Assembly: GCA_965368975.1 (NCBI GenBank)
Contig: CBDUPA010000026.1
Coordinates: 5,488 to 69,487 of the forward strand
Origin: an uncultured bacterium
GTDB lineage: Bacteria; Acidobacteriota; Thermoanaerobaculia; Multivoradales; JAHZIX01
Length of the DNA stretch: 64,000 nt
Reading direction: 5' to 3'
Shown: piece after piece, positions 661-16,700 of the stretch
How positions within the stretch are numbered: position 1 is the first letter of the stretch
Layout of the letters: each line of letters starts with the position of its first letter
Notes under the pieces: generated by a model
What the model was told of the DNA's origin: nothing
Seen by the model: only the letters and a program-made list of their open reading frames with translations
The model's database searches: none
Position numbers and translations under genes: made by a program

Positions 661-775
661 GTGGTGGTAGGTGTCTTCGGCAGGTTGCATGACAAGTTCT
701 GAGCGGAGCCAGCATGGTAAAGTGCATTGCACTGCAACGCAGTTCGTCACTCAGGCTTCGTCGAGGATCAGCACC

Positions 776-1027
776 ATGCCAAGTCAACTGACCGTCCGAC
801 TCGCAGATGAACTCGACCGAGCGCTCACCCAAGCTGCCGCACAATCGCAGCGCAAGCGTTCGGAGATCGTCCGTCTGGCGCTACAGCAGTACCTTGGGTT
901 CCAAAGACCCGGCACGCGCCCCGCAGATCGAGTTCGTCACCTCTTCGGCTGTATCGAGTCGGGGGTTCCGGATCTGGCGGAGAATCATCGAACCCATATT
1001 CTGAAGTCGCTCGCGGATGGCGACTAA
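776..1027 (+). CDS. vapB: Ribbon-helix-helix (CopG/VapB-type) antitoxin
   Basis: MPSQLTVRLADELDRALTQAAAQSQRKRSEIVRLALQQYL is a typical RHH N-terminus. The gene overlaps the downstream PIN gene by 11 nt. I chose the ATG at 776 rather than the ORF-track start at 671. Confidence 0.8.
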   Translation: MPSQLTVRLADELDRALTQAAAQSQRKRSEIVRLALQQYLGFQRPGTRPADRVRHLFGCIESGVPDLAENHRTHILKSLADGD

Positions 1028-1436
1028 TACGCTGCTGCTCGACACAGGAGCTCTGGTCTCGCTCCTCGACCGAAGTCAGCGACTGCATGCGGCGTGTGTC
1101 GAGGTGTTTGAAGCCTGGACGGACGCGGTGGTGAGTACGGAAGCGGTGCTCACGGAAGCGACCCACTTGATGGGTCGCAAGCCTGGCGGTAGAGAAGCGT
1201 GTGCCGAGTTCTTCCTAAAGGGCGGTGCCACGCTGGTCCCCACCGTACCGGCTGCGCTGCTGCGCTGCCGCGAACTGATGGAGAAGTACGCGGACCTGCC
1301 GATGGACTATGCTGACGCGACGCTCGTGGTGCTGGCCGAGGAAGTCGAGTCGGACCTGGTCTTCACGACAGATCGTGATTTCTTGGTGTATCGGCACAAA
1401 GGCTGGCGAACGTTCCGGATCGTGCCGGAGCTCTAG
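1017..1436 (+). CDS. vapC: PIN-domain ribonuclease toxin (VapC family)
   Basis: LLLDTGALVSLLD near the N-terminus, plus DYADATLVVLAEE and VFTTDRDF acidic motifs. Length is 139 aa and the gene is coupled to the upstream RHH gene. Confidence 0.85.
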   Translation: MATNTLLLDTGALVSLLDRSQRLHAACVEVFEAWTDAVVSTEAVLTEATHLMGRKPGGREACAEFFLKGGATLVPTVPAALLRCRELMEKYADLPMDYADATLVVLAEEVESDLVFTTDRDFLVYRHKGWRTFRIVPEL

Positions 1437-2648: not shown

Positions 2649-2681
2649 TGCACGCACAGTATTAATATGTTGTTGCGTGCA
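2649..2681 (+). promoter_or_regulatory. Inverted repeat bracketing an AT-rich -10-like element upstream of the protease gene
   Basis: TGCACGCA (2649-2656) and TGCGTGCA (2674-2681) flank CAGTATTAATATGTTGT, which contains TAATAT. TTGACA at 2630-2635 is too far upstream to pair with that -10. Confidence 0.3.
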
Positions 2682-2741
2682 CGAGTTCAGCCTGGGCGCA
2701 TCGTCGTGGCTTGGGCGTTCTACCAATCAGGAGATAGGAGA

Positions 2742-4235
2742 ATGAATATGATGAAGACAGCAGAGCGCTGCTGTACCTGGCTCGGTGCCGCACTGGCGCT
2801 GAGCCTGACGCTAACCCCGACTCTTGCCGCCGAGTCGGCCGAAGACATCTGCAGCGCCGTGCCGAAGTCCGAGGACGGCCAGGCGGTGCAGGTCGGTGAA
2901 GAGGTCATGCTGAGCCTCGACTCACCCGCGGTCACGCTTGCCGGCAAGGAAGAGCAACTGGTCTGGAGTGAGGAGATCCAGGACCCGGAAGGTGCCTACA
3001 TCGCACCGCATTTCGATGCCTTCCAGTTGCCGGAAGGTGCACGTCTCGTCGTGCGCTCTCCCGAGGGTGAACGCTCGTGGGAGTACACGGGCAGTGGACA
3101 GGGCGAAGGTGACGGATTCTGGGGTATTCATATCCATGGCGATACGGCCATCGTGGAGCTGTATTCCAGCGTCTCGCTGCTGGGTGGCGAGGTGAGCATC
3201 GACAGCTATGCTCGCGGCTACGATCTGCCGATGGACTTCGAGGCGCTGTGCGGCACGGACGATTCGGCGTGGGCCAAGTGCTACCAGACCAGCCATCCGC
3301 AGGTCTACAACAGCTCACGTGCTGTGGCCCGCTTGCTGATCGGTGGTACCAGCCTGTGCACGGGGTGGTTGGTCGGCAGCGACGGCCACCTGATGACCAA
3401 CAACCACTGCATCAGCAATGCCAGCGAGGCCAACAGCACCACGGTGGAGTTCATGGCCGAGGGGGCCACCTGCGGGACCAACTGCGCTTCCGCACTGGGC
3501 TGCCCTGGCACTGTCGTGGCCACCAGCACGACCTATGTGCAGTCGGATTTCACGCTCGACTACGCGCTGGTCAAGCTGCCGACCAACCCGACGACGACCT
3601 ACGGCTTCTTGCAGATGCGGGATCGTGGTACGGCAGCGGGTGAGCGTATCTACATCCCGCAGCATCCTGCGGGTTGGGGTAAGAAGATCGCTCTCTTCTC
3701 GACCCACTCGGACGACGAGACGGGCTTTTGCCAGGTCGAGAGTACAACGCGACCGCCCTGCAGCGGTGGTGCCGGCAACAATGACGTGGGCTACTGGTGC
3801 GACACGCAGGGCGGCAGCTCCGGTTCGCCGGTCCTCGGCTTGTGTGACCACGTCGTGCTGGCGCTGCACCACTGTGGCAGCTGCCCGAACCGCGGCGTGC
3901 CGATCGAGAAGGTGATCCGCGAGCTGCGCGATGCTGGCAACCTGCCGCCCAACAGCATCGCCAGTACCTGGGGGTGCGGCGATTGCGGTCCGGGGTATTG
4001 CGACGGCACGCAGTACTGCGACGATCTCGGCTGCTACCCGGCGGGTAGTCCGCTGTCGCGGGCCATCTGCGAGTGTGGCTGGTTGGCGCCCCAGTGTGGA
4101 ATTGGCGGCTGTGTCGGCGATAGCTACTGCGACGGGGCCAACTGCCAGTACCCGGTGTGCTGGATCGACACGTATCCCGGCTCGCAGGTGATGTGCCAGG
4201 GCCGTGAGGTCGACGCCGCCTGCAACGTGATCTGA
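2742..4235 (+). CDS. Secreted trypsin-like (S1/V8-type) serine protease with a Cys-rich C-terminal domain
   Basis: AGGAGATAGGAG lies immediately upstream of the ATG at 2742 and a signal peptide follows. Catalytic-triad contexts are GWLVGSDGHLMTNNHC, DYALVKL and GGSSGSPV. The last ~95 aa contain many Cys residues. Confidence 0.85.
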   Translation: MNMMKTAERCCTWLGAALALSLTLTPTLAAESAEDICSAVPKSEDGQAVQVGEEVMLSLDSPAVTLAGKEEQLVWSEEIQDPEGAYIAPHFDAFQLPEGARLVVRSPEGERSWEYTGSGQGEGDGFWGIHIHGDTAIVELYSSVSLLGGEVSIDSYARGYDLPMDFEALCGTDDSAWAKCYQTSHPQVYNSSRAVARLLIGGTSLCTGWLVGSDGHLMTNNHCISNASEANSTTVEFMAEGATCGTNCASALGCPGTVVATSTTYVQSDFTLDYALVKLPTNPTTTYGFLQMRDRGTAAGERIYIPQHPAGWGKKIALFSTHSDDETGFCQVESTTRPPCSGGAGNNDVGYWCDTQGGSSGSPVLGLCDHVVLALHHCGSCPNRGVPIEKVIRELRDAGNLPPNSIASTWGCGDCGPGYCDGTQYCDDLGCYPAGSPLSRAICECGWLAPQCGIGGCVGDSYCDGANCQYPVCWIDTYPGSQVMCQGREVDAACNVI

Positions 4236-4330: not shown

Positions 4331-6145
4331 TCAGCGAGCGGATTCGCGGATCAGGCGCAGCTGGTAGGCACCCACCTCGCCGGGCAGCGCGGAGGTCATC
4401 GCGACGCCGTAGTCGCCGTTCTCGGGCAGCGTGGCTTCGATGTAGGCATTGGTGCCGGTGCCGCCATCATCGTCTTCGGCGATGCGGTCACCCTCGAAGC
4501 GGTCGAGCATCAGGTAGGTGTCGAAGTCTTCGGAGGTTGCTTCCAGTCGGATGGTTTCCCCCTTGCGGCCGTGGAAGTAGTAGACGTCCAGGTACTCGCC
4601 GTCGTCGAGGGTCTCATCTCCCGGCAGCAGGTAGGCATGGGTTGGGCGATCGTCGCTCAGGATGGCATCGAAGCGAGTGAACATCTCGTCGTCGCCGCCC
4701 TGGATGAAGTGTGGGGCACGGCGGGCAAGGGCGCACTGCATGGGGCTCAGCTGGCCGCCGAGGCTACTGGTATCCGCGTCTTCGGCCATCAGGTTCTGCG
4801 TTGTGTCGTTGTTGGGGTCGCCATCGCCTTCGGTGGGATCGGGCAGGCCGAGCATCTCACCGATCTGACGCGCTAGCTCCAGTTCCAGCTCGCGTTCGTG
4901 CAGCGCTGCATCGCTGAGAATGATGCTGACGCGGCTGGGGGCGAAGGTGGTGGACGAGAAGTGGGTGCTGTACGGACCACCGCCTTCGATGCGGGGCACG
5001 ACGAAGACAGTCAGGATACCCTCGGTCGGGCCGACGCGTTCGGGAAGCTCTTGCAGGGCGAGTTCTTCGTCCGTCCAGCCTTCGTCGGCAATCTCCAGGG
5101 CGTCTTCGACACCCGGAACCTCGACCGGAGGTCGGGGTTCGTCGCTGTCGAGCAGGATGCCGATGCCGCACTGCTTCCAGACGTCACGGCTGCGCTCGAC
5201 CACGCGCAGAACCTGATCTGTGGTCGCTTGCGATCCGCCCTTGCCGTTCTCGCCGTGCACGCGCAGCAGGCGCAGCTGCAGCGTGGCGCCATCGCGCTCA
5301 GGGCCCGGGAAGGGCGCGGCGGTGAGCTGGTACTGGCCACCGCGCAGTTCGCTGGTCGAGCTGACTTCGATCACCACCTCGCTACCCTCCGGCGTGGTCT
5401 TGGACGGCTCGAGGTACACCAGGGGGCGCAAGTCGCCGGAGGACAGGCTGATGTCATCGGCCCAGTAGACCAGCTCGCCGGAAGGTGAATTGACCCACAG
5501 CAGCAGGTCCAGCTCGCGGGAGGTGGCCAGGACCGCCACCGGGTGGGGCGGCATTTCGAGGCGCCAGACGTCTTCGTAGCTGTCAGCGGCGTTGATGGTG
5601 TCCCCTGGTGCCAGCCAAGCGTCGACGGTGTGGCCGACCTGCAGCTGTGAATGGCCTTCACGTACGCTCTGGCTCTTGACCGAGATGGTGTACATGCCGG
5701 TGCTCACCTCGACAGAGTTGGCCCAGGCCTGATAGGTGCCCCGGAGGCTGGGGAAGAACTCGATTTGGGAGGAATCGCCACGCGCAAAGTTCTCATCGTC
5801 GTTGATCTCGAGCACGAAGCCATCGGGATCGATCAGCATCAAGACCGGGTCGAAGTCGTCCGAGGCGAGCTGAATCGTGACCAGATCACCGGGCTCTCCG
5901 TCGAAGGTATAGATGTCGAAGTAGGTTTCGTCGAACAGCAGTCCGTCCCTGCTGGACAACTTGCCGGTCGTCGCTTCGCCCAGGGGCAGCGGCGTGCGGC
6001 TGTCGGGCCAGCGCTCGGCCTGGTCGGTGGCGCGCAGGCGGTCTTCGCCGCCTCCTTGAGCGTTGGCCGGGAGGCACGGCACGAGTAGCGCCGTGAGAAG
6101 TACCGCGAGCAGTACGAGGGGGAGACCGAGACGATGGGAATGCAT
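4331..6145 (-). CDS. Secreted protein with N- and C-terminal pre-peptidase C-terminal (PPC)-like domains and a central degenerate metzincin-like region
   Basis: Signal peptide MHSHRLGLPLVLLAVLLTALLVPCLPANA. PPC-like stretches are YFDIYTFDGEPGDLVTIQLASDDFDPVLMLIDPDG and YLDVYYFHGRKGETIRLEATSEDFDTYLMLD. AGGAAGG RBS upstream. Confidence 0.7.
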   Translation of the reverse strand: MHSHRLGLPLVLLAVLLTALLVPCLPANAQGGGEDRLRATDQAERWPDSRTPLPLGEATTGKLSSRDGLLFDETYFDIYTFDGEPGDLVTIQLASDDFDPVLMLIDPDGFVLEINDDENFARGDSSQIEFFPSLRGTYQAWANSVEVSTGMYTISVKSQSVREGHSQLQVGHTVDAWLAPGDTINAADSYEDVWRLEMPPHPVAVLATSRELDLLLWVNSPSGELVYWADDISLSSGDLRPLVYLEPSKTTPEGSEVVIEVSSTSELRGGQYQLTAAPFPGPERDGATLQLRLLRVHGENGKGGSQATTDQVLRVVERSRDVWKQCGIGILLDSDEPRPPVEVPGVEDALEIADEGWTDEELALQELPERVGPTEGILTVFVVPRIEGGGPYSTHFSSTTFAPSRVSIILSDAALHERELELELARQIGEMLGLPDPTEGDGDPNNDTTQNLMAEDADTSSLGGQLSPMQCALARRAPHFIQGGDDEMFTRFDAILSDDRPTHAYLLPGDETLDDGEYLDVYYFHGRKGETIRLEATSEDFDTYLMLDRFEGDRIAEDDDGGTGTNAYIEATLPENGDYGVAMTSALPGEVGAYQLRLIRESAR

Positions 6146-6220: not shown

Positions 6221-6251
6221 GAAGAAACAAAGGTCCTGGGGTGCAGGACCT
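6221..6251 (-). terminator. Rho-independent terminator downstream of the small Cys-rich peptide gene
   Basis: On the minus strand: AGGTCCTG, a 5-nt loop, CAGGACCT, then TTGTTTCTTC. Confidence 0.65.
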
Positions 6252-6290
6252 GTATAGTTTATCTCTTGGTTCGACGGCCAAGTAGGGGAG

Positions 6291-6326
6291 AACCTCCGGC
6301 GGCCTCTGTGAGGCTCGCCGGAGGTT
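6291..6326 (-). other. Perfect 11-bp stem hairpin 25 nt after the peptide gene stop
   Basis: AACCTCCGGCG, a 14-nt loop, then CGCCGGAGGTT. There is no U-tract. Confidence 0.5.
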
Positions 6327-6350
6327 CAGACTCGATTCGCTCGACCTGCT

Positions 6351-6581
6351 TCAGGCGCAGCCGGCGAAGATGCAAGTGACGCAGGAGATGCAGATCGAGA
6401 TCTCGTTGGTCTGGCCCAGGCAGCGATCCGGGTTGCAGGTCTCGCAACTGCAAGTACATGGTTTCGGTTCGTCGACAGCGATGGCGACCGCGGCGCCGTT
6501 GGCGTGGCGCAGGCTGCTCTGATCCATGAACTGGATGGTCTCCCGGTTCAGTTGCAACTTGTTCGTCTTACGCTTGCGCAT
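6351..6581 (-). CDS. Small exported Cys/Ser/Thr-rich peptide precursor (RiPP/bacteriocin-like, double-glycine-type leader)
   Basis: GGAGGAGGAG lies 5 nt upstream of the ATG. The leader KLQLNRETIQFMDQSSLRHANGAA resembles KLxLxKETLxxL...GG leaders. The last 35 aa hold 9 Cys and 7 Ser/Thr. The gene has its own hairpin and terminator. Confidence 0.7.
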   Translation of the reverse strand: MRKRKTNKLQLNRETIQFMDQSSLRHANGAAVAIAVDEPKPCTCSCETCNPDRCLGQTNEISICISCVTCIFAGCA

Positions 6582-6722
6582 AGGTACTCCTCCTCCGTGT
6601 TGTGCGAGCGCGGGTTCGCGCTGCGGACCTCGCGGCTCGGCAGATTGAGATGTAGCCCTACTCTAGCGCTTGACGCCAAGGGTCGCCAGGGCTGGATTTG
6701 CTTCCTCCGCTCTCGGGGTACC

Positions 6723-8921
6723 TCACAGCCGGAACAGGTACGTCATCTTGACGATCACCTGGCGGTCGCGGGTTTCCAGGTCGGAGAAACTGGGGGAGTT
6801 CCAGTTCTCATTGTAGACCACGTAGAGGTCGGAACCGGGGCGGTAGGTCCAGCGCAGGCGCAGGTTGGCACCGAAGACTTCACTGACGCTGTTGTACTGC
6901 AGGATGCCGTTGAGCGACAGGTCCGGGGTGAACGATAGCTCCAGGCGCTGGCGCACGACATCGAAGTCGAAGTCGCCGACGGGCAGGCTGACGTCGCTGC
7001 GCACCCAGGTGGTCTCGGTACGGAAGTAGCGGGAGGCACGCACGCTGACGGAGGCTGTGAAGGCGGTGCTGGAGCCGTCGTAGAAGTCCCCGGCGGTGAG
7101 CTCGAGGAAGCCGAAAACGCGGCGGGCGTCGGAGGTGGACAGCTGGAAGCCGCCTTCCCACCAGTCGTAGTCACCGGCCGGCAGGGTGACGCCGGGGAAG
7201 ATCGGGAAGTCGTTCTGCAGGTTGTCTTCCTGGCGGCGGGCGAAGAAATGGAGCTCGTCTTCGGTATGCCAGCGCAGGCCGAAGAACTCGAGCTGGACCA
7301 GCGAGGTCTCGGTGCCGCCGCCGTCGCGCTCGTACTGTTCGGCGATCAGGCCGGAGCGGTAGTTGCGGATCCTGGGGTGGTCGACGGGGCGAGGCTCGTA
7401 GACGCCGGAGCCGCGGTAGCGGCGCACGCCGCGACGCAGCAGGAAGCCGGCATCGGGGTTGAAGTCCTTGCCGATGTCGATGGCGGAGAGCGAGAAGTCG
7501 TAGAGCGCGCTGTCGTAGTTGAAGCCGGCGCCGGCGTTCCAGGGCTCGTCTTCGTCGACCTCGGAATCGTCACTACGCGAGGCGAAGGCCCAGACGTTGG
7601 TTTCGTTGGTCGGCTTGAGATCGAGGTCGATACCGTAGACTTCGTTGAGATTGCCACCGTCGGTGTCACTGCGGGTGTAGATCATGCCGATGCTGGAGCG
7701 TTCTCCCAGGTTGCGCTTGACGCGCACGACGCCCCAGTCGTTTTCAGGGACGGGCGCGCCGTTCTGACTACCCAGACTGTCGGTGCGCACGTTCATCAGG
7801 CCGAGACTCCAGCCACCGGCGCGTCCGGTCAGGCGACCGCCGAAGTCGATCGGCACTTGACGCCCATCGTCCGAGATGCCGACACGACGCGAGAAGAAGA
7901 CCTTGAACAGCGGCACGTCGGCGAACGACGGGCCGAACTCGAAGATGCCGGCGCTCTCCAGGAAGAATTCCCGCTTCTCTTGAAAAAACAGTGGGAAGCG
8001 CGTCAGGTTCACCTGCTGGTCGTCGACTTCGGCTTCGGCGAAGTCGGTGTTGGCGGTGACGTCCAGCGTCAGGTCTTCGTTGATGCCCCATTTGAAGTCC
8101 AGGCCGGTTTCCCAATCCTCTTCCGAGCCGGTTCCGGCTTGCTTGCTGGAGGAGAAGCTGGCGTAGGGCTTGATCTCGATGTTGAGGCCGCGGCGGAGCT
8201 CGAAGGGGCCGAAGTGGCCACCCTTGGAGATGCGGAAGACGTTGTCTTCGAGCCCCAGCGGTGACCAGTACGTCTCTTCGTTCTTGCGCTTGATGATGCG
8301 CCGCACCTGCATGCCCCAGGTCTCGTTGTTGGGGTCGAAGCGCAGGGTGGAGAAGGGGATGGCGAATTCTGCCGACCAGCCCTCGTCCGAGATGTGAGTC
8401 TTGACGTCCCACACGGCACCGTCCCAGGAGACGTTGAAGTCGCGGCCTTCGTCGGTCAGCAGTGCGTCGGTACGGGCGCCGTTGGGATTGGTTTCGAAGA
8501 AGAAAGCGTTGCGGTGGTCGTGGAAGGTGTCGAGGAAGATGCCGATCGAATCGTCGCGGAAAAGGAAGGCATCGCGTTCCATCTCATTGGCGATGATCTC
8601 GGACGGCTCCGAGTCGTAGGCCATGATGCCGATGTAGAGATGGGTGTTGGTGAAGACCGCGCGGAGCACCGTGCGCTCCGTGGCCGGGGCGCCTACCTGG
8701 GGCTCGCGCTGGCGGAAGTCACCGGATGGCTCGGCCTGCTGCCAGGCGTCGTCGTCGAGGTGACCATCGACGCTGATGCTCTCGTCGATGAAGAGTGGCC
8801 GCAGCTCGGGGACGCTGGAAGCCTCGGTGTGCGCGGAGGCCGGAGCGGCCGCGCTCAGGCAGGCGGTGGCGGCCAGCAGGGTGCTGGCCAGCAGACGGTG
8901 GGAAGGTATCGGCGACAACAT
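6723..8921 (-). CDS. CBM9-like / DUF5916-family outer-membrane-associated protein
   Basis: Signal peptide, then VDGHLDDDAWQQAEP...FRQREP...HLYIGIMAYD...FFFETNPNGARTD...WSAEFAIPFSTLRF, the CBM9/DUF5916 pattern. A beta-rich C-terminal part ends in an aromatic-rich strand. The ATG at 8921 with GAGGAG RBS is preferred over the TTG at 8936. Confidence 0.75.
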   Translation of the reverse strand: MLSPIPSHRLLASTLLAATACLSAAAPASAHTEASSVPELRPLFIDESISVDGHLDDDAWQQAEPSGDFRQREPQVGAPATERTVLRAVFTNTHLYIGIMAYDSEPSEIIANEMERDAFLFRDDSIGIFLDTFHDHRNAFFFETNPNGARTDALLTDEGRDFNVSWDGAVWDVKTHISDEGWSAEFAIPFSTLRFDPNNETWGMQVRRIIKRKNEETYWSPLGLEDNVFRISKGGHFGPFELRRGLNIEIKPYASFSSSKQAGTGSEEDWETGLDFKWGINEDLTLDVTANTDFAEAEVDDQQVNLTRFPLFFQEKREFFLESAGIFEFGPSFADVPLFKVFFSRRVGISDDGRQVPIDFGGRLTGRAGGWSLGLMNVRTDSLGSQNGAPVPENDWGVVRVKRNLGERSSIGMIYTRSDTDGGNLNEVYGIDLDLKPTNETNVWAFASRSDDSEVDEDEPWNAGAGFNYDSALYDFSLSAIDIGKDFNPDAGFLLRRGVRRYRGSGVYEPRPVDHPRIRNYRSGLIAEQYERDGGGTETSLVQLEFFGLRWHTEDELHFFARRQEDNLQNDFPIFPGVTLPAGDYDWWEGGFQLSTSDARRVFGFLELTAGDFYDGSSTAFTASVSVRASRYFRTETTWVRSDVSLPVGDFDFDVVRQRLELSFTPDLSLNGILQYNSVSEVFGANLRLRWTYRPGSDLYVVYNENWNSPSFSDLETRDRQVIVKMTYLFRL

Positions 8922-8939
8922 CTTGACTCTCCTCAAGGA

Positions 8940-10349
8940 TCAGGAACGTCGGCGTAGCAAGCTCAGCAGCGCCAGTAGGGCGGCTCCGAGTCCCACGCCG
9001 CGCAGGATCTTCTCTTGTCTTTCCGCCCGGGCGACGGCATCGGCGTAGGGCATCGTGGTGTGGGCGACCAAGCCATAGAGGGGTTTCCACAGCTCTGGGA
9101 AGAGCCGATTCAACCACACGTCGGCCTTCTTGCGCAGCAGGAAGGGCAGTGAACGGAGGCGTTGGCTCAATTCCAGGAAGTTTTGCTTCGACAATTCAGC
9201 CAGCGTGTCCGTGTGGACTTTGCGGCTCAGCTGGAACTGGTGGAACAGAGCGCGCCAATCGAGATCGAATTCGGTGGCGCCGCCTCGGCACCCCAGCAGA
9301 GCTTCTTGCAGGAGGTCGTCGAGCACGACACAGTCTTCGAGCGCAGCGTTCATGCCCTGGCCGAAGAAGGGATAGACCGCGTGCACGGCGTCGCCGATCA
9401 GCACTGCCCAGTCCTCGTGATACCAGGGCGCGGTGCGCACGGTGACCAGCCGGCCGACGGGATGGCTGAAGAACTGTTCGGTCAGCTCGGGCATCAGGGG
9501 CAGCAGATCTGGGAAGTAGGCTTCGAACAGCTCGCGTACGGCCTCGGGTGTCTGAATGTCGTCGAAGCAGAAGCGGCCGTCCTCACGCGCGACGGGCATG
9601 AAGAGCGTGACGGTGTGCGAGCCGTCGCGGTTCGAGTGAGTGACGATCAGAGCGTCACCGCGCGGCCACACGTGCAGGGCGTCGAGCTGAATCTGCGAGC
9701 TGCCGTCGCGGGCCGCGGGTAGGGTCAGTTCCTTGTAGCCCCAAGGAAGGTATTCCTGGTGGAAGTTCGCGCGAATGCCGGCGTGCAGGTGCTGGCGGAC
9801 CACGGAGAAGGCGCCGTCGGCACCAATGAGCAGGTCCGCGTGCACCTTGTGCTCGGTCTCTTGATCCTGGTCGAGAAATGTCAGGGTGCGGGCGTCTTTG
9901 TCCAACTCGACGCAGCGCTGGCGGAAGTGGAAGCGGATCTGACCCGTGGCTTCGGCGGCGTCCAGCAGCACGCGGTTCAGCTCGGTGCGGTCGATCGAGT
10001 TGAGTGCTTCGCTCGGGTTCTTGCCGTAGGCATGGTAGGTGACGCTGCCGTCGAGGGCATGGACGGCGCGCCCGTGCATGACAACGGCACGGTCGAGCAT
10101 GTGCTGGTCGAGACCCGCGCGGCGCAGCGCGCGCAGGCCACGGGCGGTCAGGCCGAGGTTGATCGAGCGGCCGGCCATGCCGCCGGTCTGCCGTAGGTCG
10201 CCGCGGCGCTCGTAGACGTCGACCTGGAAGCCGGCGCGTGCCAGGTAGATCGACACCATCGAGCCGGCCAGGCCGGCTCCGACGACCACGACTGTCGGTC
10301 GTGCCGACGTGGAGGCGGCCTGTTCGTGAGGAGGCTGTGAGGTGGACAT
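8940..10349 (-). CDS. kmo: Kynurenine 3-monooxygenase (FAD-dependent)
   Basis: Matches KMO signatures recalled from the human enzyme: GAGLAGS...DVYERR, GRSINLGLTARG, GADGAFSVVR, YLPWGYKELT, LHVWPR, VTLFMP, IGDAVHAVYPFFGQGMNAALEDC. A C-terminal hydrophobic helix is present. Confidence 0.88.
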   Translation of the reverse strand: MSTSQPPHEQAASTSARPTVVVVGAGLAGSMVSIYLARAGFQVDVYERRGDLRQTGGMAGRSINLGLTARGLRALRRAGLDQHMLDRAVVMHGRAVHALDGSVTYHAYGKNPSEALNSIDRTELNRVLLDAAEATGQIRFHFRQRCVELDKDARTLTFLDQDQETEHKVHADLLIGADGAFSVVRQHLHAGIRANFHQEYLPWGYKELTLPAARDGSSQIQLDALHVWPRGDALIVTHSNRDGSHTVTLFMPVAREDGRFCFDDIQTPEAVRELFEAYFPDLLPLMPELTEQFFSHPVGRLVTVRTAPWYHEDWAVLIGDAVHAVYPFFGQGMNAALEDCVVLDDLLQEALLGCRGGATEFDLDWRALFHQFQLSRKVHTDTLAELSKQNFLELSQRLRSLPFLLRKKADVWLNRLFPELWKPLYGLVAHTTMPYADAVARAERQEKILRGVGLGAALLALLSLLRRRS

Positions 10350-10385
10350 GGGCCAGGATCTCCGAGGGAATCGCGCTCGGGCGCG

Positions 10386-11501
10386 TCAGTGTGGCCGCCG
10401 GGCCACGAGTAGGTGGTCACCGGTCGATTCGAGTACCGTGCAGGTCTCGATCTGCAGGCCGCTCTGTTCGAGCCAGCCGCGGACCTCGGCCAGGGTGTAG
10501 GTGCGCCCGCCCAGCAGATGGAAGAGGTTGAGGCGAAAGATGCGATGGAAGGCTTCGGCGACGGCGGGCAGTTCGGGCCGCTCCTCGCCCGCGAGCTGTT
10601 CGAGCACGACCAGCCGGCCTCCCGGCCGCAGCAGGGTACGCACCCGGCGTAGCAACTCCAGGTTGGTTTCCGCGGGAAAACTGTGCACGATGCTCAGTAG
10701 ATACGCGACGTCGTAGCCGTCGCTGCTGGCGGACGCGTCGTCCCTGAGGTCGTCCTCCAGGAAGTTGGCTGCCCGGAACTCGACGCGCTCGGCCAGACCC
10801 GCGGCTTCGGCGTTCTCGCGCGCGACTTCCAGCGAGCTGGGTAGATCGACGACGGTGGCAGTGGCGCCCTCAATGCGGCGGCAGAAGGCCAGGGCGTGAC
10901 GTCCGTGGCCACCACCGATATCGATCAGCCGCGGTGGCTGATTTGCCGTCGAGGTCGAGACGTCCAACTGCAGATGCTCCAGAATCTCGTCGCCGTTGAG
11001 TTCCGCCAGTTGCCCGAGCATGGTCTGGAACACACGCTGCGCCGCCGGTCGCTCGTCGAGCCAGCTGTAGAGATGCAGTCCGGGCTGGCCACTCCGGATG
11101 GTCCCTTCGAGGTCGTGCCACAGCTCGAACAGCTGCAGTGACCAGAACTCGACGACGGCGGTGAAGTCGAAGCCCTCGCCTTCTGGGGGCCGCAGCCAGC
11201 GACGGGCAGCTTCGCTCAGGGTCCAGATCGGGTCCGGTTGCTGGGCTTCCAACTGTTGGGCATACCCGAAGCTCTCCAGTGCTTCGAGCAGGAAGCCGGT
11301 GGCGGCGGGATCCGTGTCCAGGCGCGCCGCCAGCTCGGTGGCGGGGGCGTCGCCCTCGGCCAGAGCTTCGAACAGGCCCAGGCGCAGCGCTGCCGCGGCG
11401 GCACGGAAACCGGCGGTGGCGAGCAGGTCGAGCTGCGGCGCCGGGGCATCGGCACTGTCGAAGAAGGCTCGGGTTTCTTCGTCGCTGAGACGGATCGGCA
11501 T
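10386..11501 (-). CDS. Class I SAM-dependent O-methyltransferase (family 2, with N-terminal dimerisation domain)
   Basis: LIDIGGGHGRHALAF SAM motif with the overall length and layout of COMT/TcmO-like enzymes. GAGGAG RBS upstream. Confidence 0.8.
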   Translation of the reverse strand: MPIRLSDEETRAFFDSADAPAPQLDLLATAGFRAAAAALRLGLFEALAEGDAPATELAARLDTDPAATGFLLEALESFGYAQQLEAQQPDPIWTLSEAARRWLRPPEGEGFDFTAVVEFWSLQLFELWHDLEGTIRSGQPGLHLYSWLDERPAAQRVFQTMLGQLAELNGDEILEHLQLDVSTSTANQPPRLIDIGGGHGRHALAFCRRIEGATATVVDLPSSLEVARENAEAAGLAERVEFRAANFLEDDLRDDASASSDGYDVAYLLSIVHSFPAETNLELLRRVRTLLRPGGRLVVLEQLAGEERPELPAVAEAFHRIFRLNLFHLLGGRTYTLAEVRGWLEQSGLQIETCTVLESTGDHLLVARRPH

Positions 11502-11516
11502 GTCGACTCCTCGGCT

Positions 11517-12341
11517 TCAGATCTCTGCGGCGTCCGATGGGAGCGGCGGTCTTGCTGGTGGTATTTCCTGCGGAGCCAGACCTCGTAGCTCGATCTCGGC
11601 TTCCACCAGGGCGTCGATGGCACGGTCGAGACGCTGCTCAGAGACGGACTGACCGAGGCGCCGTAGGTAGGCGCGCAGGAAGCCGACTCGGGCACCCGCG
11701 GTGTCGCGGGGGCGCGAGAGGAAGGGTAGGTCGGTCTCCACCATGTGACGGATCACCAGCATGGGGATCGGACTGCGCAGCGGCCGGATCTTGTCGCTGC
11801 GCAGGCCCGGCGTCTGATTCTTGGCGTGGAACTCACCGAGCATCAGGCCGCAACGGGTGAAATCCTTTTTCAGCGTTGCCTGGACGCCGTCGATCAGTTC
11901 CGGCACGGCTGCTTCGTCGATGTCCGGGAACAGCATCAAGAGGGCCTTGTTGACTGACTCATCGCCGTAGCGTGGTTCCTGGTGCAAGAAGACGTCGCGG
12001 TACTGGCTGGCGATCTTGCCGACGTGCTCCGGCGCGGCGTCTGATTTCAGGTGGATGCACGTCAGGAACAACGAGTCGAGTTTCATCGCGATCGGCATGA
12101 AAGGACACACGGGGCCGGTGCGGCCGAGATCCGGGTGCGGCTGACACAGGAAGTCGCGCATCCAGGTGACGATGACGCACAGTGGCCCGAGATCCTCGGC
12201 GACGGGTTCTCCCGACTCGATCTGTGAGATGCGGTAGAGGGATGTCGGCGGCTGGGTAGCGTCATCTTCGCTGGGATTGCAGCCCTGGCGCAACGCGTCT
12301 TGCAGGCCCACGGCGGCGGGGGCGGTTGGTTTCTCGGTCAT
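11517..12341 (-). CDS. Conserved-looking protein of unknown function (BGC-embedded)
   Basis: 274-aa ORF whose start makes an ATGA overlap with the MFS gene stop. It contains GRTGPVCPFMP. I cannot assign a family by eye. Confidence 0.6.
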   Translation of the reverse strand: MTEKPTAPAAVGLQDALRQGCNPSEDDATQPPTSLYRISQIESGEPVAEDLGPLCVIVTWMRDFLCQPHPDLGRTGPVCPFMPIAMKLDSLFLTCIHLKSDAAPEHVGKIASQYRDVFLHQEPRYGDESVNKALLMLFPDIDEAAVPELIDGVQATLKKDFTRCGLMLGEFHAKNQTPGLRSDKIRPLRSPIPMLVIRHMVETDLPFLSRPRDTAGARVGFLRAYLRRLGQSVSEQRLDRAIDALVEAEIELRGLAPQEIPPARPPLPSDAAEI

Positions 12342-13738
12342 GGTAGGTCCTTTGCTGTCTCTGCTCCAGGGGATTCGATGTCGAGCGGCGCGTCGGCTCG
12401 CGATGGTTCGAGGGCGTCCGGGATCTCATCTTCCAAACCACGCAGGCGCGGATAGAGAAGGCCGACACCGGCGACCAGGATGACGCTGGCACCGCCGAGG
12501 ATGAACATGAAGGCGATTCCGCGGCCCGGGCCGGTGCCGATCAGTGCACCGACGCTGGTGGCCAGAGTGCCGCCGGGGGCCAGCAGGGGTTCGAAGACGT
12601 GGTCGGCCAGCGGTCCCGCCAGCACGTAGCCGAGCGGGACCGTGGCACGGGTCAGCATCTGGCGGGCGGCGAGGACCTTGCCGAGCACCCCGCTGGGCAC
12701 CTTGGTCTGCCAGATGATGTCGTTGCAGGCGAAGATGAAGGGCAGGGTGGCGAAGAAGAAGAAGGCGCAGACGCCGATCAGCAGCGACGATGGTCGCAAT
12801 CCGTGCAGCATCAGGGCGATGCCGGCCAGCGCCAGGAAGCCGAGCACGCCGTGGATGCGCCGTGCCGGTCCGCCCCAGCTGCTCATCAGCATGCCGCCCA
12901 CCAGCATGCCGACGCCACCGATCGAGGTCAGCAGGCCGAGCATGGCGGCGCTGGTGAACTCCAGGATCATCGGGGTGATCAGCGGGCCGATGATGGCCAG
13001 CATGAAGCTGAACCAGCCGATCACCGCCAGGATGCCGAGCAGCCCGGGATGGCGGAAAATGTAGGACAGGCCGAAGGTCAGCTCCTGCCGCAGGCCACCC
13101 TCACCCTCGTCACCCGCCTCGGCAAGCCGCGGCGGGCGTGGGATGCGCACCGCGAGTAGCGTTGCCAGCGCGACCAGGAAGGTGACGACGTCGATGCCGA
13201 CCACGCCGCTGAGGCCGACCTCGAGCAGCAGGTAGCCAGCCAGTGCCGGTGCCAGCACCTGGCGGATCGCCACCGCGGTCTGCGCCAAGCCGTTGGCGTG
13301 ACCCAACTGCTTGCGGGGCACCAGCAGCGGGATCGACGCCAGGTAGGCGGGCTCTTGGAAGGCGTTGCCGAGAGACGAGATCGCGACCACCAGGTAGATG
13401 TGCCACACGTCGAGCTGGCCGCTGAGGGCCAGCAGCAGGACGGCCAGGCTGCCCAGACCGGCCATCAGGTCGGCAGCGATCATCATGGTGCGGCGGTCGT
13501 GGCGGTCGACCAGCGCACCGGCCAGCGGCGCGATCAGCAGACCGGGCAGTTCCAGGAAGAGGAAGATGAGGGCAAAGCTGGTCGCCGAACCGGTCTGCTG
13601 GTAGACCCACACGCCGAGGGCAAAGGCGGTCAGGCCGGTGCCCACCTGCGATACCACCTGACCGCTCCAGATGGTGTAGAAGGGCTTCATGTTGGCACGT
13701 TGTACTGGTGCTTCTTCTTGGCTCATAGGGGGGCTCAT
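12338..13738 (-). CDS. MFS transporter (EntS/peptide-exporter-like)
   Basis: About 12 hydrophobic segments and the GALVDRHDRR loop motif typical of NRPS-associated MFS exporters. Its start makes an ATGA overlap with the NRPS-PKS stop. Confidence 0.85.
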   Translation of the reverse strand: MSPPMSQEEAPVQRANMKPFYTIWSGQVVSQVGTGLTAFALGVWVYQQTGSATSFALIFLFLELPGLLIAPLAGALVDRHDRRTMMIAADLMAGLGSLAVLLLALSGQLDVWHIYLVVAISSLGNAFQEPAYLASIPLLVPRKQLGHANGLAQTAVAIRQVLAPALAGYLLLEVGLSGVVGIDVVTFLVALATLLAVRIPRPPRLAEAGDEGEGGLRQELTFGLSYIFRHPGLLGILAVIGWFSFMLAIIGPLITPMILEFTSAAMLGLLTSIGGVGMLVGGMLMSSWGGPARRIHGVLGFLALAGIALMLHGLRPSSLLIGVCAFFFFATLPFIFACNDIIWQTKVPSGVLGKVLAARQMLTRATVPLGYVLAGPLADHVFEPLLAPGGTLATSVGALIGTGPGRGIAFMFILGGASVILVAGVGLLYPRLRGLEDEIPDALEPSRADAPLDIESPGAETAKDLP

Positions 13739-16700
13739 GCGGGAGGTACCGAGGTCTTCAGAGGTGGAAGTTTCAGCCTCGGCGTTTCGGGGCGCGTGCG
13801 GCGCAGGAAGCCGGTGCGTTCCAGGTAGTCGAAGTAGGTGGTGAGCAGGGTGTCGTCCGCGGGCGGGCAGACCAGGCCGGCAGCTTGCAGGCGGGCCTGC
13901 GAGTGGTGCTGCTCAAAAGTCGGCTGGCGGTCTTCCTCGAGCGTGTCGCCGAACAGGGCCAGGAAGGAGGCGAGGGCGTTTTCCTGCTGCGCCGCCACGG
14001 CGCTGCGCAGGGCCGTGACCCACTCGCCGTAGGGCACCAGGCGCAGCGGCTGCACATGGACGTTGACCCAGCGGGCCAGCTCGCGGAAAGGCAGCGTCCG
14101 GCGGTTGTAGAAGTGGTAGGCGCGGCCGAGTGTGCCTGTTCCGAGGTTGCCGCTATCGAGGTCCGTCGCCAGATCCGCCGCCAGGCAGACGATCGCCTTG
14201 GCCAGGTAGTCGACGGGCATCAGGTCGATGGCGTGGGCGATGTCGGGCGCCAGGCCCAGTTGCACGCAGCCCTTGATCCAGCTGTAGAAGAGATCCTGGG
14301 TGTTGGCGGCGCCGCTGGACGCCGCACCGGAGACGCGGGCGGGACGCAGGATGTTGACCGGCAGACCGCGCTCGCGCGCTTGTTCGCACAGCTGCTCGGC
14401 GACCCACTTGCTCTGCTCGTAGCCCTTGTCCAGGCCATCCGGGCTCGGCGCGTCGTCTTCGGTCACCGTCGTGCCTTCGTAGGCTGGTTGCAGGAACAGG
14501 CCGAGCGTCGAGACGAAGTGCACCGGTCGCGCGCCGTCGAGGGACGCTAGGCGCAGCACTTCCTCGGTCCCGTGGACATTGATGGCTTCGAGCGCGCTAT
14601 AGGGGCGCACGAAGTCGACCGCGGCGGCGTTGTGGTGCAGTTCGCCGAGCTGGGCTGCCAGGCGCGCGAAGGCGGCGGCGTCGAGGCCCAGGCGCGGCTG
14701 GCTGAGGTCGCCGAGTACCGGCACCAGGCGTGCTGCATCCTTGCGCCCGGCGTCGCCCCGAGACTCGATGTCGCTCCACAGGTCATAGGCTTCGAGATTG
14801 CGCTGGATGCGCTGGCGTCCGGCCTCGATGGTGTCCGCGCGCACCAGGATGTAGATGTCACCGTTGCGGGCGCGCAGCAGCTCGTCGATCAGGTAGGCGC
14901 CGAGGAAGCCGGTGCCGCCAGTGACCAGCACGCCGGTGCCGGTGGGTCGGTCCTTCTCCGGACGGGGCTGCCCGGGACGGGACTCCCTCGGCTGGATCGC
15001 CGGGTCGAGGACGGCGCGAGCGCGCAGGTCGAGGGTTTGTGTCTCGCCCGCCCGCAGCGCCTCGACGACGCGAGCGAAGGCAGCGACGGTCGTGGCCTCG
15101 AACAGCTTGGTCAGTGGGATCTCCAGGAGCAGCTCCAGCTGCATGCGGCTAGCCAGCTGCATGGCGAGCAGGGAGCTGCCACCGGCGGCGAAGAAGTCGT
15201 CCTCGACCCCCAGTTGCGGCGCGGACAGCAGCTCGCGCCAGATCTCCAACAGCTGTGCCTCTAGCGGTGTGCGCGGTGTCACCGGCTCGGCGGTACCGAC
15301 GGTCGGCGCTGGCAGAGCGCGCAGGTCGACCTTGCCGTTGGGGGTCAGCGGCAGGACTTCGAGCGGCACGATCGTCGACGGCACCATGTAGGCTGGGAGG
15401 TGGTCGGCGAGGAAGGTGCGCAGGGTGTCGAGGGCGGGTGGGGTGGTCTCTGTCGACTTCGCGACCACGTACCCCACCAACTGCGCCGCTGCTCCCTCAC
15501 CGAAAGCCACCACGACGGCCGACGCCACCTCTGGATGTCGCTGCAGCGTGGCCTCGATCTCACCCAGCTCGATGCGGAAGCCGCGGATCTTGACTTGACG
15601 GTCTCGGCGGCCGAGGAATTCGAGCACGCCTTGTGTGCTGGTGGCGTGCTCTCCGGAACGAACCGGTAGCCAGCGCGCCAGGTCGCCGGTGCGGTAGAGG
15701 CGCCCTCCGGGGTTTCCGCCGACCGGGGAACTGCCTTCGCCGCGGGCGAACGGATCGGGCACGAAGACCTCGGCGGTGCGCGCCGGCAAGCGCAGGTAGC
15801 CGAGTGCGATGCCGGCACCACCCAGGCACAGCTCTCCCGCCACGGACGCTGGCTGCGGCCGCAGATGCGTGTCCAGCACGTAGACGCGCACGTTGGGCAG
15901 CGGTGCACCGATCGGTAGGGCTGGACGCGTCACTTCCGAGCCGTCGCGCGTCGGGTAGGAGGTAGCGCAGACGGTCGCCTCGGTGGGGCCGTAGTGGTTG
16001 AACACGCGGGCCCGCGGCGATGCCAGCTGGGCCCAGGTTGCCAGCTGGTGCGTGTTCACTGCCTCGCCGCCGACCATCATGACTTCCAGGTCCGGCAACA
16101 CGAGCTGGCGGTTGCGTGCCCTCCCCTGAGAGGCCAGTTTCTGAGAGACTAGCCAGTCGTCGAGCCAGGCCTTCCACAACGCTACCGCGGTGTCGATCAC
16201 AGACACGCGGCGGCGCGTGCAGAAGCGGTCGAGCCGGTCGCCGGTCAGGCGGCCCGGTGCCGGGTGGAAGATCAGGCAGGCGCCGGCCGCCCAAGCGGGG
16301 AAGAGGTCGCCCACCGAGGCATCGAAGTGCAGTGGCGGTATGGCCAGGAAGCGGTGGGTCTCGCGCAGTCCGTGGTGCTGGACGAAGGCGTACGCCAGGT
16401 TGACCGCGCTACGGTGGCTGACGGCGACCCCCTTGGGGCGGCCGGTCGAGCCTGAGGTGGTGATGACGTAGGCCGGGTAGTCGGGGCTAAAGCCGGCGCT
16501 CGAGCTGGTGGGCAGCGGCGTGGCCGGTGCTGAGTGGCCGCGCGGCGGCACCAGACGGCCTTTGTAACCGGTCAGCCGGGCCGTGCCGATCAGCACGCGG
16601 CAGCCGTTGTCTTCGAGGATCTGGCGCTGGCGCTCGGCCGGGGCGCCCGGATCCAGGGGGAGGTAGGCGGCGCCCGCCAGGTGGATCGCGACGATGGCGA

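What the first reader, a model, noticed from the sequence alone, without database searches (positions are those of the whole stretch)
6221..6581. Orphan 76-aa gene: double-glycine-type leader plus a 9-Cys/7-Ser/Thr core, with a strong RBS and its own terminators
Seen: GGAGGAGGAG lies 5 nt upstream of the ATG at 6581. The N-terminus MRKRKTNKLQLNRETIQFMDQSSLRHANGAA resembles the KLxLxKETLxxL...GG leaders of exported bacteriocin/RiPP precursors (TIGR04149-like), here ending in GA/AA. The C-terminus is PCTCSCETCNPDRCLGQTNEISICISCVTCIFAGCA, with CxCxC and CxxCxxC spacing and an odd number of Cys residues. A perfect 11-bp hairpin (6291-6326) and a hairpin with a U-tract (6221-6251) follow the stop. 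I see no LanM/LanB/LanC, radical-SAM, YcaO or C39-peptidase ABC transporter gene within the window. The neighbours are secreted proteins: a PPC/degenerate-metzincin protein downstream and, further on, a protease with a Cys-rich tail. Inference: this is a candidate RiPP or disulfide-rich secreted peptide whose maturation and export genes lie elsewhere, or an unrecognised class. A metallothionein-like metal-binding peptide is an alternative, but the export-type leader argues against that.
Basis: partly seen in the sequence, partly recalled or inferred. Interest (0 to 1): 0.7.

Follow-up and report, generated by a model that had tools for sequence, protein, structure and literature searches.

The report
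Unclustered RiPP precursor peptide, Thermoanaerobaculia family
The 76-codon ORF is a real gene for a leader-plus-cysteine-rich-core precursor peptide from a large, unstudied Acidobacteriota (Thermoanaerobaculia) family; most relatives sit right behind a B12-dependent radical-SAM enzyme, but this copy stands alone, so its modifying enzyme must lie elsewhere.

Summary
In detail: ORF, 9 Cys, GGAGGAGGAG 5 nt before the ATG, and two downstream hairpins are all present. The gene looks real. GC3 is 0.83 in frame, and its Shine-Dalgarno is the only GGAGGAGGAG in 64 kb.

It is not a sequence orphan. Single-sequence searches found nothing. A degenerate DNA scan for the leader motif in metagenomes, then a profile search of 5.8 billion proteins, found 1280 relatives (best E 6e-27). 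These are 64-89 aa, and those with an organism name are Thermoanaerobaculia/Acidobacteriota. An HMM built from 25 relatives hits only this ORF in the six-frame window (E 3e-14).

Shared features are the leader LxLx[KR]ET[LI]...L[RS]xAxGAA, a linker, and a core motif TxxISxCxxC. In 7 of 11 long loci, and 3 short contigs, a TIGR03975 B12-binding radical-SAM gene lies directly upstream of the peptide. Four long loci have no maturase within 8-10 kb, as here.

The wider leader superfamily is often linked to LanB/LanC. The window has no maturase or C39 transporter.

Best reading: a divergent, unclustered RiPP precursor modified in trans; the chemistry is unknown. Interest is moderate.

The parts
6587..6596 (-). 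Shine-Dalgarno GGAGGAGGAG, with a 5-nt spacer to the ATG
   Evidence: Read directly. It is the only occurrence in the window on either strand. Relatives carry similar AAGGAGGAG-type sites.
6351..6581 (-). 76-aa precursor peptide gene, including the stop codon at 6351-6353
   Evidence: GC3 is 0.83. A family HMM gives E 3e-14 and 48 bits, the only hit among 1150 six-frame segments of the window.
6492..6581 (-). Leader, M1-A30: MRKRKTNKLQLNRETIQFMDQSSLRHANGA. It carries the LxLx[KR]x5[LM] motif. The G29-A30 end is a putative cleavage site.
   Evidence: NF038153 gives E 0.01. It aligns with family leaders of the form ...L[RS]xA[NA]GAA. GAA is the commonest leader end among 120 relatives. Cleavage at this site is inferred, not shown.
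6354..6491 (-). Core, A31-A76: a hydrophobic/acidic linker, then the Cys-rich region (9 Cys)
6420..6458 (-). CTCSCETCNPDRC: an extra Cys-rich segment that is absent from the relatives' cores in the alignment
   Evidence: The 120 best relatives have 3-7 Cys, against 9 here.
6381..6410 (-). TNEISICISC: this peptide's copy of the family core motif T-x-x-[IVL]-S-x-C-x-x-C
   Evidence: The motif occurs in 97 of 120 relatives. It arises in 0.03% of shuffles of this core, using a post hoc motif definition. The core-only HMM reaches only 8 bits, which is not significant.
6290..6327 (-). Long GC-rich hairpin (12 + 5 bp) starting 23 nt after the stop codon, with no U tract
6221..6251 (-). Terminator-like site: 8-bp stem, 5-nt loop, then TTGTTTCTTC
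   Evidence: Relatives also end in a hairpin plus a T run.

Best explanation
The ORF at 6351-6581 (-) is an expressed gene for a ribosomal precursor peptide. It belongs to a large, so far unnamed peptide family of Thermoanaerobaculia (Acidobacteriota).

The family has four shared parts:
- a basic N-terminus;
- the leader motif K-L-x-L-x-[KR]-E-T-[LI]...L-[RS]-x-A-x-G-A-A, a distant sister of the 'L1a' LxLxKx5L leaders of Bacteroidota class I lanthipeptides;
- a short linker;
- a Cys/Ser/Thr core built around T-x-x-I-S-x-C-x-x-C.

In clustered family members the gene lies immediately downstream of a TIGR03975 B12-binding radical-SAM enzyme ('RiPP maturation radical SAM C-methyltransferase').

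The window's copy is a divergent member, with 9 Cys and an extra CTCSCETCNPDRC segment. It is also unclustered. The inferred pathway is as follows. The leader is recognised in the cytoplasm by such an enzyme encoded elsewhere in the genome. The core is modified there. The leader is then removed around G29-A30 and the product is exported.

What is shown: the gene signals, family membership, and the enzyme linkage in relatives. What is inferred: modification in trans, the cleavage site, export, and any chemistry.
For: Gene reality:
- The strongest Shine-Dalgarno in the window sits at ideal spacing.
- GC3 is 0.83, and an independent GC3-based caller picks the ORF.
- The gene has its own hairpins and terminator.

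Family:
- A degenerate DNA scan for the leader in metagenomes gave 120 loci, with about 87 credible peptides in 73 loci, often in tandem copies.
- The closest were L096, L121 and L120 (phmmer E 2e-12 to 9e-9 within that set).
- A profile search of 5.8e9 proteins found 1280 relatives, best E 6e-27; those with an organism name are Thermoanaerobaculia/Acidobacteriota.
- An HMM of 25 database relatives finds only this ORF in the six-frame window, at E 3e-14, with the next hit at 0.32.
- Against the rSAM-linked subfamily HMM, the window peptide scores highest of 79 peptides selected by the same motif: 42 bits, versus a mean of 26, sd 6 and maximum 38.
- The window's neighbouring gene is closest to Ca. 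Multivorans, class Thermoanaerobaculia.

Enzyme linkage:
- TIGR03975 scores 703 bits directly beside the peptides in L120 and L130.
- The same arrangement is seen in L096 and L102.
- A 663-684-aa Radical_SAM gene occupies the same position in L136, L137, L138, L140 and L141.

Unclustered precedents:
- L132/L133, L134/L135, the P0110 locus and L139 have no rSAM within 8-10 kb.

Shared gene architecture:
- Relatives also have a strong Shine-Dalgarno and their own terminator.
Against: - No TIGR03975, LanB/C or any other maturase lies within 6.3 kb on one side and 57 kb on the other. The rest of the genome could not be searched, so a partner enzyme is assumed.
- Core similarity alone is not statistically significant: 8 bits, with a strong Cys composition bias.
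- The margin over LanBC-linked peptides in leader score is modest (z about 2.7).
- The relatives were first found with a pattern taken from this peptide's own leader, so the motif columns match by construction.
- No member of the family has been studied experimentally, as far as the held literature shows.
- The TIGR03975 rule of antiSMASH has been treated as prone to false positives (PMC9426513).
Confidence: 0.6

Rival explanations
1. It is a class I lanthipeptide precursor. LanB and LanC encoded elsewhere dehydrate the core Ser/Thr residues and link them to Cys, forming thioether rings.
For: - The leader hits NF038153 lant_leader_L1a and fits the LxLxKx5L motif reported for Bacteroidetes class I LanAs (PMC7268733).
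- Among 73 metagenome loci with this leader type, 26 carry LanC and 12 carry full-length LanB.
- The core has 7 Ser/Thr, mostly N-terminal to Cys.
- One unclustered family member (P0110) has a LanC gene 3.4 kb away.
Against: - The HMM score (16 bits) is below the curated cut-off of 22 bits.
- The closest relatives sit beside a B12-rSAM and have no LanBC within 5-10 kb.
- There are 9 Cys for 7 Ser/Thr.
- The window contains no LanB or LanC.
- The LanC near P0110 has its own 50-aa ORF.
Confidence: 0.2
2. It is an unmodified or decaying family member. Either it is made and simply forms disulfides, as a bacteriocin-like or signalling peptide, or it is a relic that has lost its enzyme.
For: - No maturase or transporter is present in 64 kb.
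- The core diverges from the family consensus: it has an extra Cys segment and its tail lacks the conserved ...LDTCP.
- A leaderless, core-like remnant exists in a relative (L130:419-565), which shows that copies can decay.
Against: - The reading frame is intact, the Shine-Dalgarno is the strongest in the window, GC3 is gene-like, and the gene has its own terminator.
- The leader is well conserved, which makes sense only if something still recognises it.
- An odd Cys count (9) fits poorly with a purely disulfide-bonded fold.
Confidence: 0.13
3. It is a cytoplasmic metallothionein-like, metal-binding peptide.
For: The CxCxCxxC spacing and the Cys content (20% of the core).
Against: - It matches no metallothionein family in Pfam or NCBIfam.
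- The 30-aa leader is homologous to RiPP leaders, and relatives are linked to rSAM or LanBC.
- The core is hydrophobic (I, V, F).
Confidence: 0.03
4. It is not a protein-coding gene in its own right. It is either a chance ORF or a regulatory (attenuator) leader ORF for the downstream PPC-domain gene.
For: - The ORF is followed by two hairpins upstream of a same-strand gene.
- Its codon-usage score is at the low end for the window's genes, at the 2.6th percentile.
Against: - The family HMM gives E 3e-14.
- Relatives lie in front of convergent genes, leaving nothing downstream to attenuate.
- The hairpins begin 23 nt after the stop codon and do not overlap the Cys codons.
Confidence: 0.02

Closest known systems
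Unnamed Thermoanaerobaculia peptide family beside TIGR03975 radical-SAM genes (for example P0017/L130, P0008/L136, P0047/L137, L120, L096)
   Same: - Leader: MKKxKxxKLxLxRETLRSL..L[RS]xAxGAA.
- A linker ending in ..PCT.
- The core motif TxxISxCxxC.
- Length of 64-89 aa.
- A strong Shine-Dalgarno and the gene's own terminator.
- The taxon.
   Different: - The window copy has 9 Cys, against 3-7 in relatives.
- It carries an extra CTCSCETCNPDRC segment.
- Its tail CVTCIFAGCA replaces the family's CT[TG]xLD[TG]CP.
- It has no adjacent rSAM, as is also true of P0088, P0103, P0110 and P0122.
Bacteroidota class I lanthipeptide precursors with LxLxKx5L leaders (NF038153 lant_leader_L1a; pinensin-type family; Walker et al. 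2020, PMC7268733)
   Same: The leader motif L9-x-L11-x-R13-x5-M19 and a Gly-containing leader end. The core has both Ser/Thr and Cys.
   Different: - The HMM score is below the cut-off (16 versus 22 bits).
- The phylum is different.
- There is no LanB, LanC or C39 protease nearby.
- The closest relatives are paired with a B12-rSAM rather than LanBC.
TIGR04149 (GG_sam_targ_CFB) rSAM-modified RiPP precursors of Bacteroidota
   Same: A KLxLxKETI-type leader ending in a small-residue pair, and an association with a radical-SAM maturase in relatives.
   Different: The match is only E 0.49 at 10 bits, against a cut-off of 25. From my own knowledge, the partner enzyme class there is SPASM-type rSAM; here it is B12-binding TIGR03975.
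Prochlorosin/Nif11-type systems, in which many scattered precursors share one enzyme
   Same: Precursor genes lie far from the modifying enzyme; this is noted for prochlorosins in PMC7268733. Cores are hypervariable behind a conserved leader.
   Different: The leader family, enzyme and phylum all differ. Processing in trans is inferred here, not shown.
Proteusin-type B12-rSAM C-methyltransferases (PoyB/PoyC). The link to TIGR03975 rests on the NCBIfam family name and on my own knowledge.
   Same: The relatives' partner enzyme carries this family annotation (TIGR03975, 703 bits).
   Different: Those enzymes use NHLP-type leaders and long cores. Here the substrates are short and Cys-rich, and the actual reaction is unknown.

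Membership tests
Thermoanaerobaculia L1a-like-leader / TIGR03975-linked peptide family (unnamed) | The leader plus linker matches the family profile | tested here: met
   An HMM of 25 database members gives E 3e-14 and 48 bits, and it is the only hit in the six-frame window. The window peptide scores highest of 79 against the subfamily HMM.
Thermoanaerobaculia L1a-like-leader / TIGR03975-linked peptide family (unnamed) | The conserved core motif CT-x-x-[IVL]-S-x-C-x-x-C-T...D-x-C-P | tested here: inconclusive
   TNEISICISC.T is present. The regex occurs in 97 of 120 relatives and in 0.03% of shuffles of this core. The core-only HMM reaches only 8 bits, and the ...LDxCP tail is absent.
Thermoanaerobaculia L1a-like-leader / TIGR03975-linked peptide family (unnamed) | A TIGR03975 B12-binding radical-SAM gene lies adjacent | tested here: not met
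   None is present in the window. However, 4 of 11 long relative loci also lack it, so adjacency is typical of the family rather than obligatory.
Class I lanthipeptide precursor (NF038153 L1a type) | The leader HMM scores at or above the curated cut-off | tested here: not met
   16 bits against a cut-off of 22, E 0.01.
Class I lanthipeptide precursor (NF038153 L1a type) | LanB dehydratase and LanC cyclase are in the cluster | tested here: not met
   No PF04738, PF14028 or PF05147 hit was found, and tblastn with soil LanB and LanC queries found nothing.
Class I lanthipeptide precursor (NF038153 L1a type) | The core has Ser/Thr and Cys placed so that rings could form | tested here: met
   The core has 7 Ser/Thr and 9 Cys, with most Ser/Thr N-terminal to a Cys.
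Class I lanthipeptide precursor (NF038153 L1a type) | Dehydro residues and lanthionine in the mature product | not testable with these tools
   This needs mass spectrometry.
TIGR04149 rSAM-modified RiPP precursor | The HMM scores at or above the cut-off | tested here: not met
   10.3 bits against a cut-off of 25, E 0.49.
Double-glycine (PCAT-processed) leader peptide | G-[GAS] at positions -2/-1, with hydrophobic residues at -4, -7, -12 and -15 | tested here: met
   By inspection: G29-A30, with A27 (-4), L24 (-7), M19 (-12) and I16 (-15). Leaders of relatives end in GAA, GGA or GAL.
Double-glycine (PCAT-processed) leader peptide | A C39-peptidase ABC transporter is encoded with the peptide | tested here: not met
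   None is present in the window. None appears in the 8-10 kb flanks of the relatives whose genes were listed.
Bacterial metallothionein | A match to a metallothionein family model | tested here: not met
   There is no Pfam hit and no metallothionein-family NCBIfam hit at E up to 1.

The most novel reading that the evidence does not exclude
The peptide and its 1280 relatives may define an uncharacterised RiPP class of Thermoanaerobaculia. In this reading a TIGR03975 B12-dependent radical-SAM enzyme recognises a lanthipeptide-like (L1a-type) leader and installs an as yet unknown modification on TxxISxCxxC cores. The modification could be C-methylation, or something new involving the conserved Cys. 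One enzyme would serve both adjacent precursors and precursors scattered around the genome, prochlorosin-style. The window copy, with 9 Cys, would then be a diversified substrate.
Probability: 0.35. Interest if true: 0.6.

Novelty: new variant of a known kind. Interest (0 to 1): 0.42.

Why it matters
The finding turns an apparent orphan into a handle on a large, unannotated peptide family in Thermoanaerobaculia, a class of Acidobacteriota recently highlighted as rich in RiPPs (PMC13083261).

- Nearly all family members are labelled 'hypothetical' in databases. At least one is labelled 'class I lanthipeptide' purely on its leader, although a B12-rSAM gene, not LanBC, sits beside it.
- The same leader type is paired with two unrelated maturase systems, LanBC and TIGR03975 rSAM. 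That is a concrete case of leader reuse across RiPP classes.
- Clustered and unclustered precursors coexist, so genome miners that require adjacency will miss a sizeable share of substrates.
- The chemistry of TIGR03975 enzymes on short Cys-rich cores is untested, and it is directly testable by co-expression.

Tried and rejected
- Single-sequence searches found nothing. The word-index search of 5.8e9 proteins returned only the query itself. phmmer against 1.84e9 representatives returned the query plus two compositional repeat proteins. Those proteins are irrelevant.
- Exact-sequence contig look-ups for the peptide and for a neighbouring gene found nothing on record. The unseen 7.4 kb of the contig and the rest of the genome therefore stayed out of reach.
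- Synteny through the upstream DUF5916 gene gave 9 loci at 29-46% identity, none with a comparable small ORF.
- The downstream PPC protein is itself nearly an orphan, with a single 27%-identity hit, so it offered no conserved pairing to exploit.
- No paralogous leader occurs elsewhere in the window.
- A core-only HMM could not establish core homology.
- The 681-aa protein upstream of the peptide in L134/L135 was considered as a possible novel maturase. It was rejected because it has a signal peptide, no family hits, and no homologue in the window.
- A sigma-54 promoter was sought because clustered relatives carry an FHA-sigma54 activator upstream. No consensus site was found.
- ThaA and TheA, the Cys-rich Thermoanaerobaculia precursors in PMC13083261, were checked as possible relatives. 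They have mersacidin-type leaders and belong to a different family.
- The rSAM enzyme has no relative of solved structure by sequence.
- No sigma-70-like promoter was found upstream of the ORF.

Full report
**1. The observation**

- GGAGGAGGAG lies at 6596-6587, five bases before the ATG.
- It is the only such decamer on either strand of the window. The other gene starts I inspected have at best partial Shine-Dalgarno matches such as AGGA or GGAG.
- Downstream, a 12+5-bp hairpin spans 6327-6290. An 8-bp stem at 6251-6231 is followed by TTGTTTCTTC (fold z = -5.5).
- Third-position GC is 0.83, typical of the window's genes. A simple GC3-based gene caller picks this ORF as the only gene in the 577-bp gap between its neighbours.
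- First-position GC and the codon-usage score are atypical (2.6th percentile). The Cys/Ser/Thr/Ile/Asn-rich composition explains this.

**2. Context in the window**

The window is 67% GC. The neighbouring DUF5916/CBM9 gene is closest (45-46% identity) to Candidatus Multivorans and other Thermoanaerobaculia, phylum Acidobacteriota.

Around the peptide lie:
- a secreted PPC-domain protein (4331-6145, -);
- an S1 protease with a Cys-rich tail (2667-4235, +);
- a DUF5916 protein (6723-8936, -);
- an NRPS-PKS cluster (8940-27525).

Pfam and NCBIfam scans covered nearly all called genes, including every one of 200 aa or more. tblastn was also run with LanB, LanC and rSAM queries. Together they found no LanB/C/M, radical-SAM, YcaO or C39-ABC gene. 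The peptide lies 6.3 kb from the window's left end, and up to 7.4 kb of the source contig were not visible.

**3. Finding relatives**

Single-sequence searches failed. The only family signal was a sub-threshold match of residues 1-28 to NF038153 lant_leader_L1a (E 0.01, 16 bits, cut-off 22) and a weaker one to TIGR04149. The motif L9-x-L11-x-R13-x5-M19 fits the LxLxKx5L leader that Walker et al. described for Bacteroidetes class I LanAs (PMC7268733).

I then scanned JGI metagenome contigs with a degenerate, GC-rich-codon DNA pattern for K-L-x-[LF]-x-[KR..]-E-T-[ILM], followed 24-48 nt later by G-[GA].
- About 87 peptides in 73 loci are 45-90-aa ORFs of the form MKKxxKKLxLxRETLRxL...GG plus a Cys/Ser/Thr-rich core. 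They often occur in tandem copies.
- The closest to the window peptide were L096 (two copies), L121 and L120 (three copies).
- These share with it the leader end L[RS]xA[NAD]GAA, a hydrophobic linker and [KN]PCT.

A profile of the window peptide plus 13 of these (alignment A1) then retrieved 1280 proteins at E <= 0.1 from 5.8e9 sequences, best 6e-27. The 120 listed are 64-89 aa, nearly all labelled 'hypothetical', and those with an organism name come from Thermoanaerobaculia/Acidobacteriota MAGs.

**4. Is the window ORF a member?**

- An HMM built only from 25 database relatives hits this ORF, and nothing else, among the 1150 six-frame segments of the window. The ORF scores E 3e-14 and 48 bits; the next hit is at 0.32.
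- Because the first relatives were found with a pattern taken from this leader, I used the other pattern-selected peptides as an internal control. Against the HMM of the rSAM-linked subfamily, the window peptide ranks first of 79: 42 bits, versus mean 26, sd 6 and maximum 38.
- In the core, TNEISICISC.T matches the family motif T-x-x-[IVL]-S-x-C-x-x-C. That motif is present in 97 of 120 relatives and in 0.03% of shuffles of this core, using a post hoc motif definition. The match is especially close to P0123 (WQTNCISICLGCTT...GCP) and L102 (ETISICKYCTT).
- A core-only HMM is not significant once HMMER corrects for Cys bias: 8 bits.

So membership rests on the leader and linker; the core match is only suggestive. 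The window peptide is also divergent. It has 9 Cys against 3-7 in relatives, an extra CTCSCETCNPDRC segment, and a CVTCIFAGCA tail in place of CT[TG]xLD[TG]CP.

**5. What the relatives sit next to**

*Clustered members.*
- In L120, a 776-aa ORF between the three precursors scores 703 bits against TIGR03975, 'RiPP maturation radical SAM C-methyltransferase', a B12-binding rSAM.
- L096 and L102 end with the C-terminus of the same enzyme (80% and 54% identity), directly followed by precursors.
- In database contigs, a 663-684-aa Radical_SAM gene lies 55-70 nt upstream of the peptide in L130 (an 8.8-Mb contig; TIGR03975 at 703 bits), L136, L137, L138, L140 and L141.

*Unclustered members.*
- Four other long loci have no rSAM or LanBC beside the peptide within 8-10 kb: L132/L133, L134/L135, the P0110 locus and L139.
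- Three of these belong to one sub-group (...CTNVLS[IV]CY[ST]CTTPLDTCPPVYT.PAYTCA) that sits in three unrelated contexts.
- Unclustered copies are therefore a regular feature of the family, and the window copy is another.

*Shared features and the wider superfamily.*
- No listed locus shows a C39/ABC transporter.
- Relatives share the strong Shine-Dalgarno, and several have a hairpin plus T run after the stop codon.
- In the wider set of pattern-selected loci, the recurrent neighbours are LanC (26 of 73 loci) and full-length LanB (12 loci).
- This leader type therefore serves both class I lanthipeptide systems and the rSAM system in high-GC soil bacteria.

**6. Mechanism**

*Shown:*
- a well-signalled small gene;
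- leader and linker homology to a large family;
- tight linkage of that family to a TIGR03975 rSAM in most long contexts.

*Inferred:*
- the leader is a recognition element for a cytoplasmic maturase encoded elsewhere in this genome, most likely the TIGR03975 type and less likely LanBC;
- the core is modified;
- the leader is cut near G29-A30, where hydrophobic residues at -4, -7, -12 and -15 fit a double-glycine-type site;
- the product is exported.

The reaction is unknown. 'C-methyltransferase' is only the NCBIfam family name. There is no relative of solved structure, and I found no paper on these clusters. One study dismissed antiSMASH's TIGR03975 rule as giving probable false positives (PMC9426513).

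**7. Rivals**

- **Class I lanthipeptide made by distant LanBC (about 0.2).** It fits the leader superfamily and the Ser/Thr-before-Cys layout, but not the closest relatives.
- **Unmodified disulfide peptide, or a relic without its enzyme (about 0.13).** It fits the missing enzyme and the divergent core. It fits poorly with the intact frame, the exceptional Shine-Dalgarno and the conserved leader.
- **Metallothionein (about 0.03).**
- **Chance or attenuator ORF (about 0.02).** Family membership argues against it, and relatives lie in front of convergent genes.

**8. Comparison and novelty**

The feature works like a RiPP precursor. It fails the formal tests for NF038153 and TIGR04149 membership because the scores fall below the cut-offs, and no cognate enzymes are present.

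It is best filed as a divergent, unclustered member of an unnamed Thermoanaerobaculia family linked to B12-rSAM. That makes it a new variant of a known kind.

The 'orphan' label holds only for position, and the PCAT-export step is not backed by context.

Interest is moderate (0.42). The single locus is not startling. However, it exposes a large uncharacterised family, an unusual pairing of a lanthipeptide-like leader with a B12-rSAM, and precursors that adjacency-based mining would miss.

Noticed in passing
window 8940-27525 (-): A separate biosynthetic cluster lies about 2.4 kb upstream of the peptide gene. It comprises a 4596-aa NRPS-PKS hybrid, an MFS exporter, a DUF6875 protein, an O-methyltransferase and an FAD mono-oxygenase. 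I saw no evidence linking it to the peptide.
   Followed up: partly
window 33835-41578 (-): Three consecutive ORFs of about 850 aa have good GC3 coding signal but no Pfam or NCBIfam hit. The frame changes near 36.3 kb and 38.9 kb.
   Followed up: partly
window 2667-4235 (+) and 4331-6145 (-): A secreted S1 protease carries a Cys-rich C-terminal tail of about 90 aa. A PPC-domain protein next to it is almost without relatives: one 27%-identity hit among 5.8e9 proteins. They are not syntenic with the peptide family elsewhere.
   Followed up: partly
L137:4753-4992 (P0047, GCA_036275055.1): NCBI names this family member 'class I lanthipeptide'. Yet it sits behind a 678-aa radical-SAM gene, with no LanB or LanC in the contig as far as it was fetched (4.7 kb upstream to the contig end, 8 kb downstream). 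The name presumably comes from the leader HMM alone and may be misleading.
   Followed up: partly
L086:948-1649 (-), and 10 other soil loci: A protein of about 234 aa with no Pfam or NCBIfam match is conserved next to LanC and LanB in 11 loci that carry this leader type. It may be an unrecognised component of lanthipeptide clusters.
   Followed up: partly
L130:419-565 (+): A leaderless stretch resembling the family core (VPDCTQAISDCVSCTKRLDSCK) lies 9.5 kb upstream of the rSAM-precursor pair in an 8.8-Mb contig. It may be a decayed precursor copy.
   Followed up: no
L130, L138, L140, L141 (upstream of the rSAM gene): The rSAM clusters share an upstream module: a Ser/Thr kinase of about 900 aa, an FHA-sigma54 activator, and a secreted Flg_new_2 or glycosyl-hydrolase/fn3 protein. 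No sigma-54 promoter consensus was found upstream of the rSAM or precursor genes.
   Followed up: partly
L077 and L088 (peptide at about 10.7 kb and 9.5 kb): A related GA-leader peptide lies beside a 2455-2481-aa protein with CHAT/HetF-like and NACHT-like matches. No maturase is visible in these loci.
   Followed up: no
window 671-1436 (+): An RHH-PIN toxin-antitoxin pair lies here. Two unclustered family members elsewhere (the P0088 and P0110 loci) also lie next to PhdYeFM-PIN pairs. This is probably coincidence.
   Followed up: no
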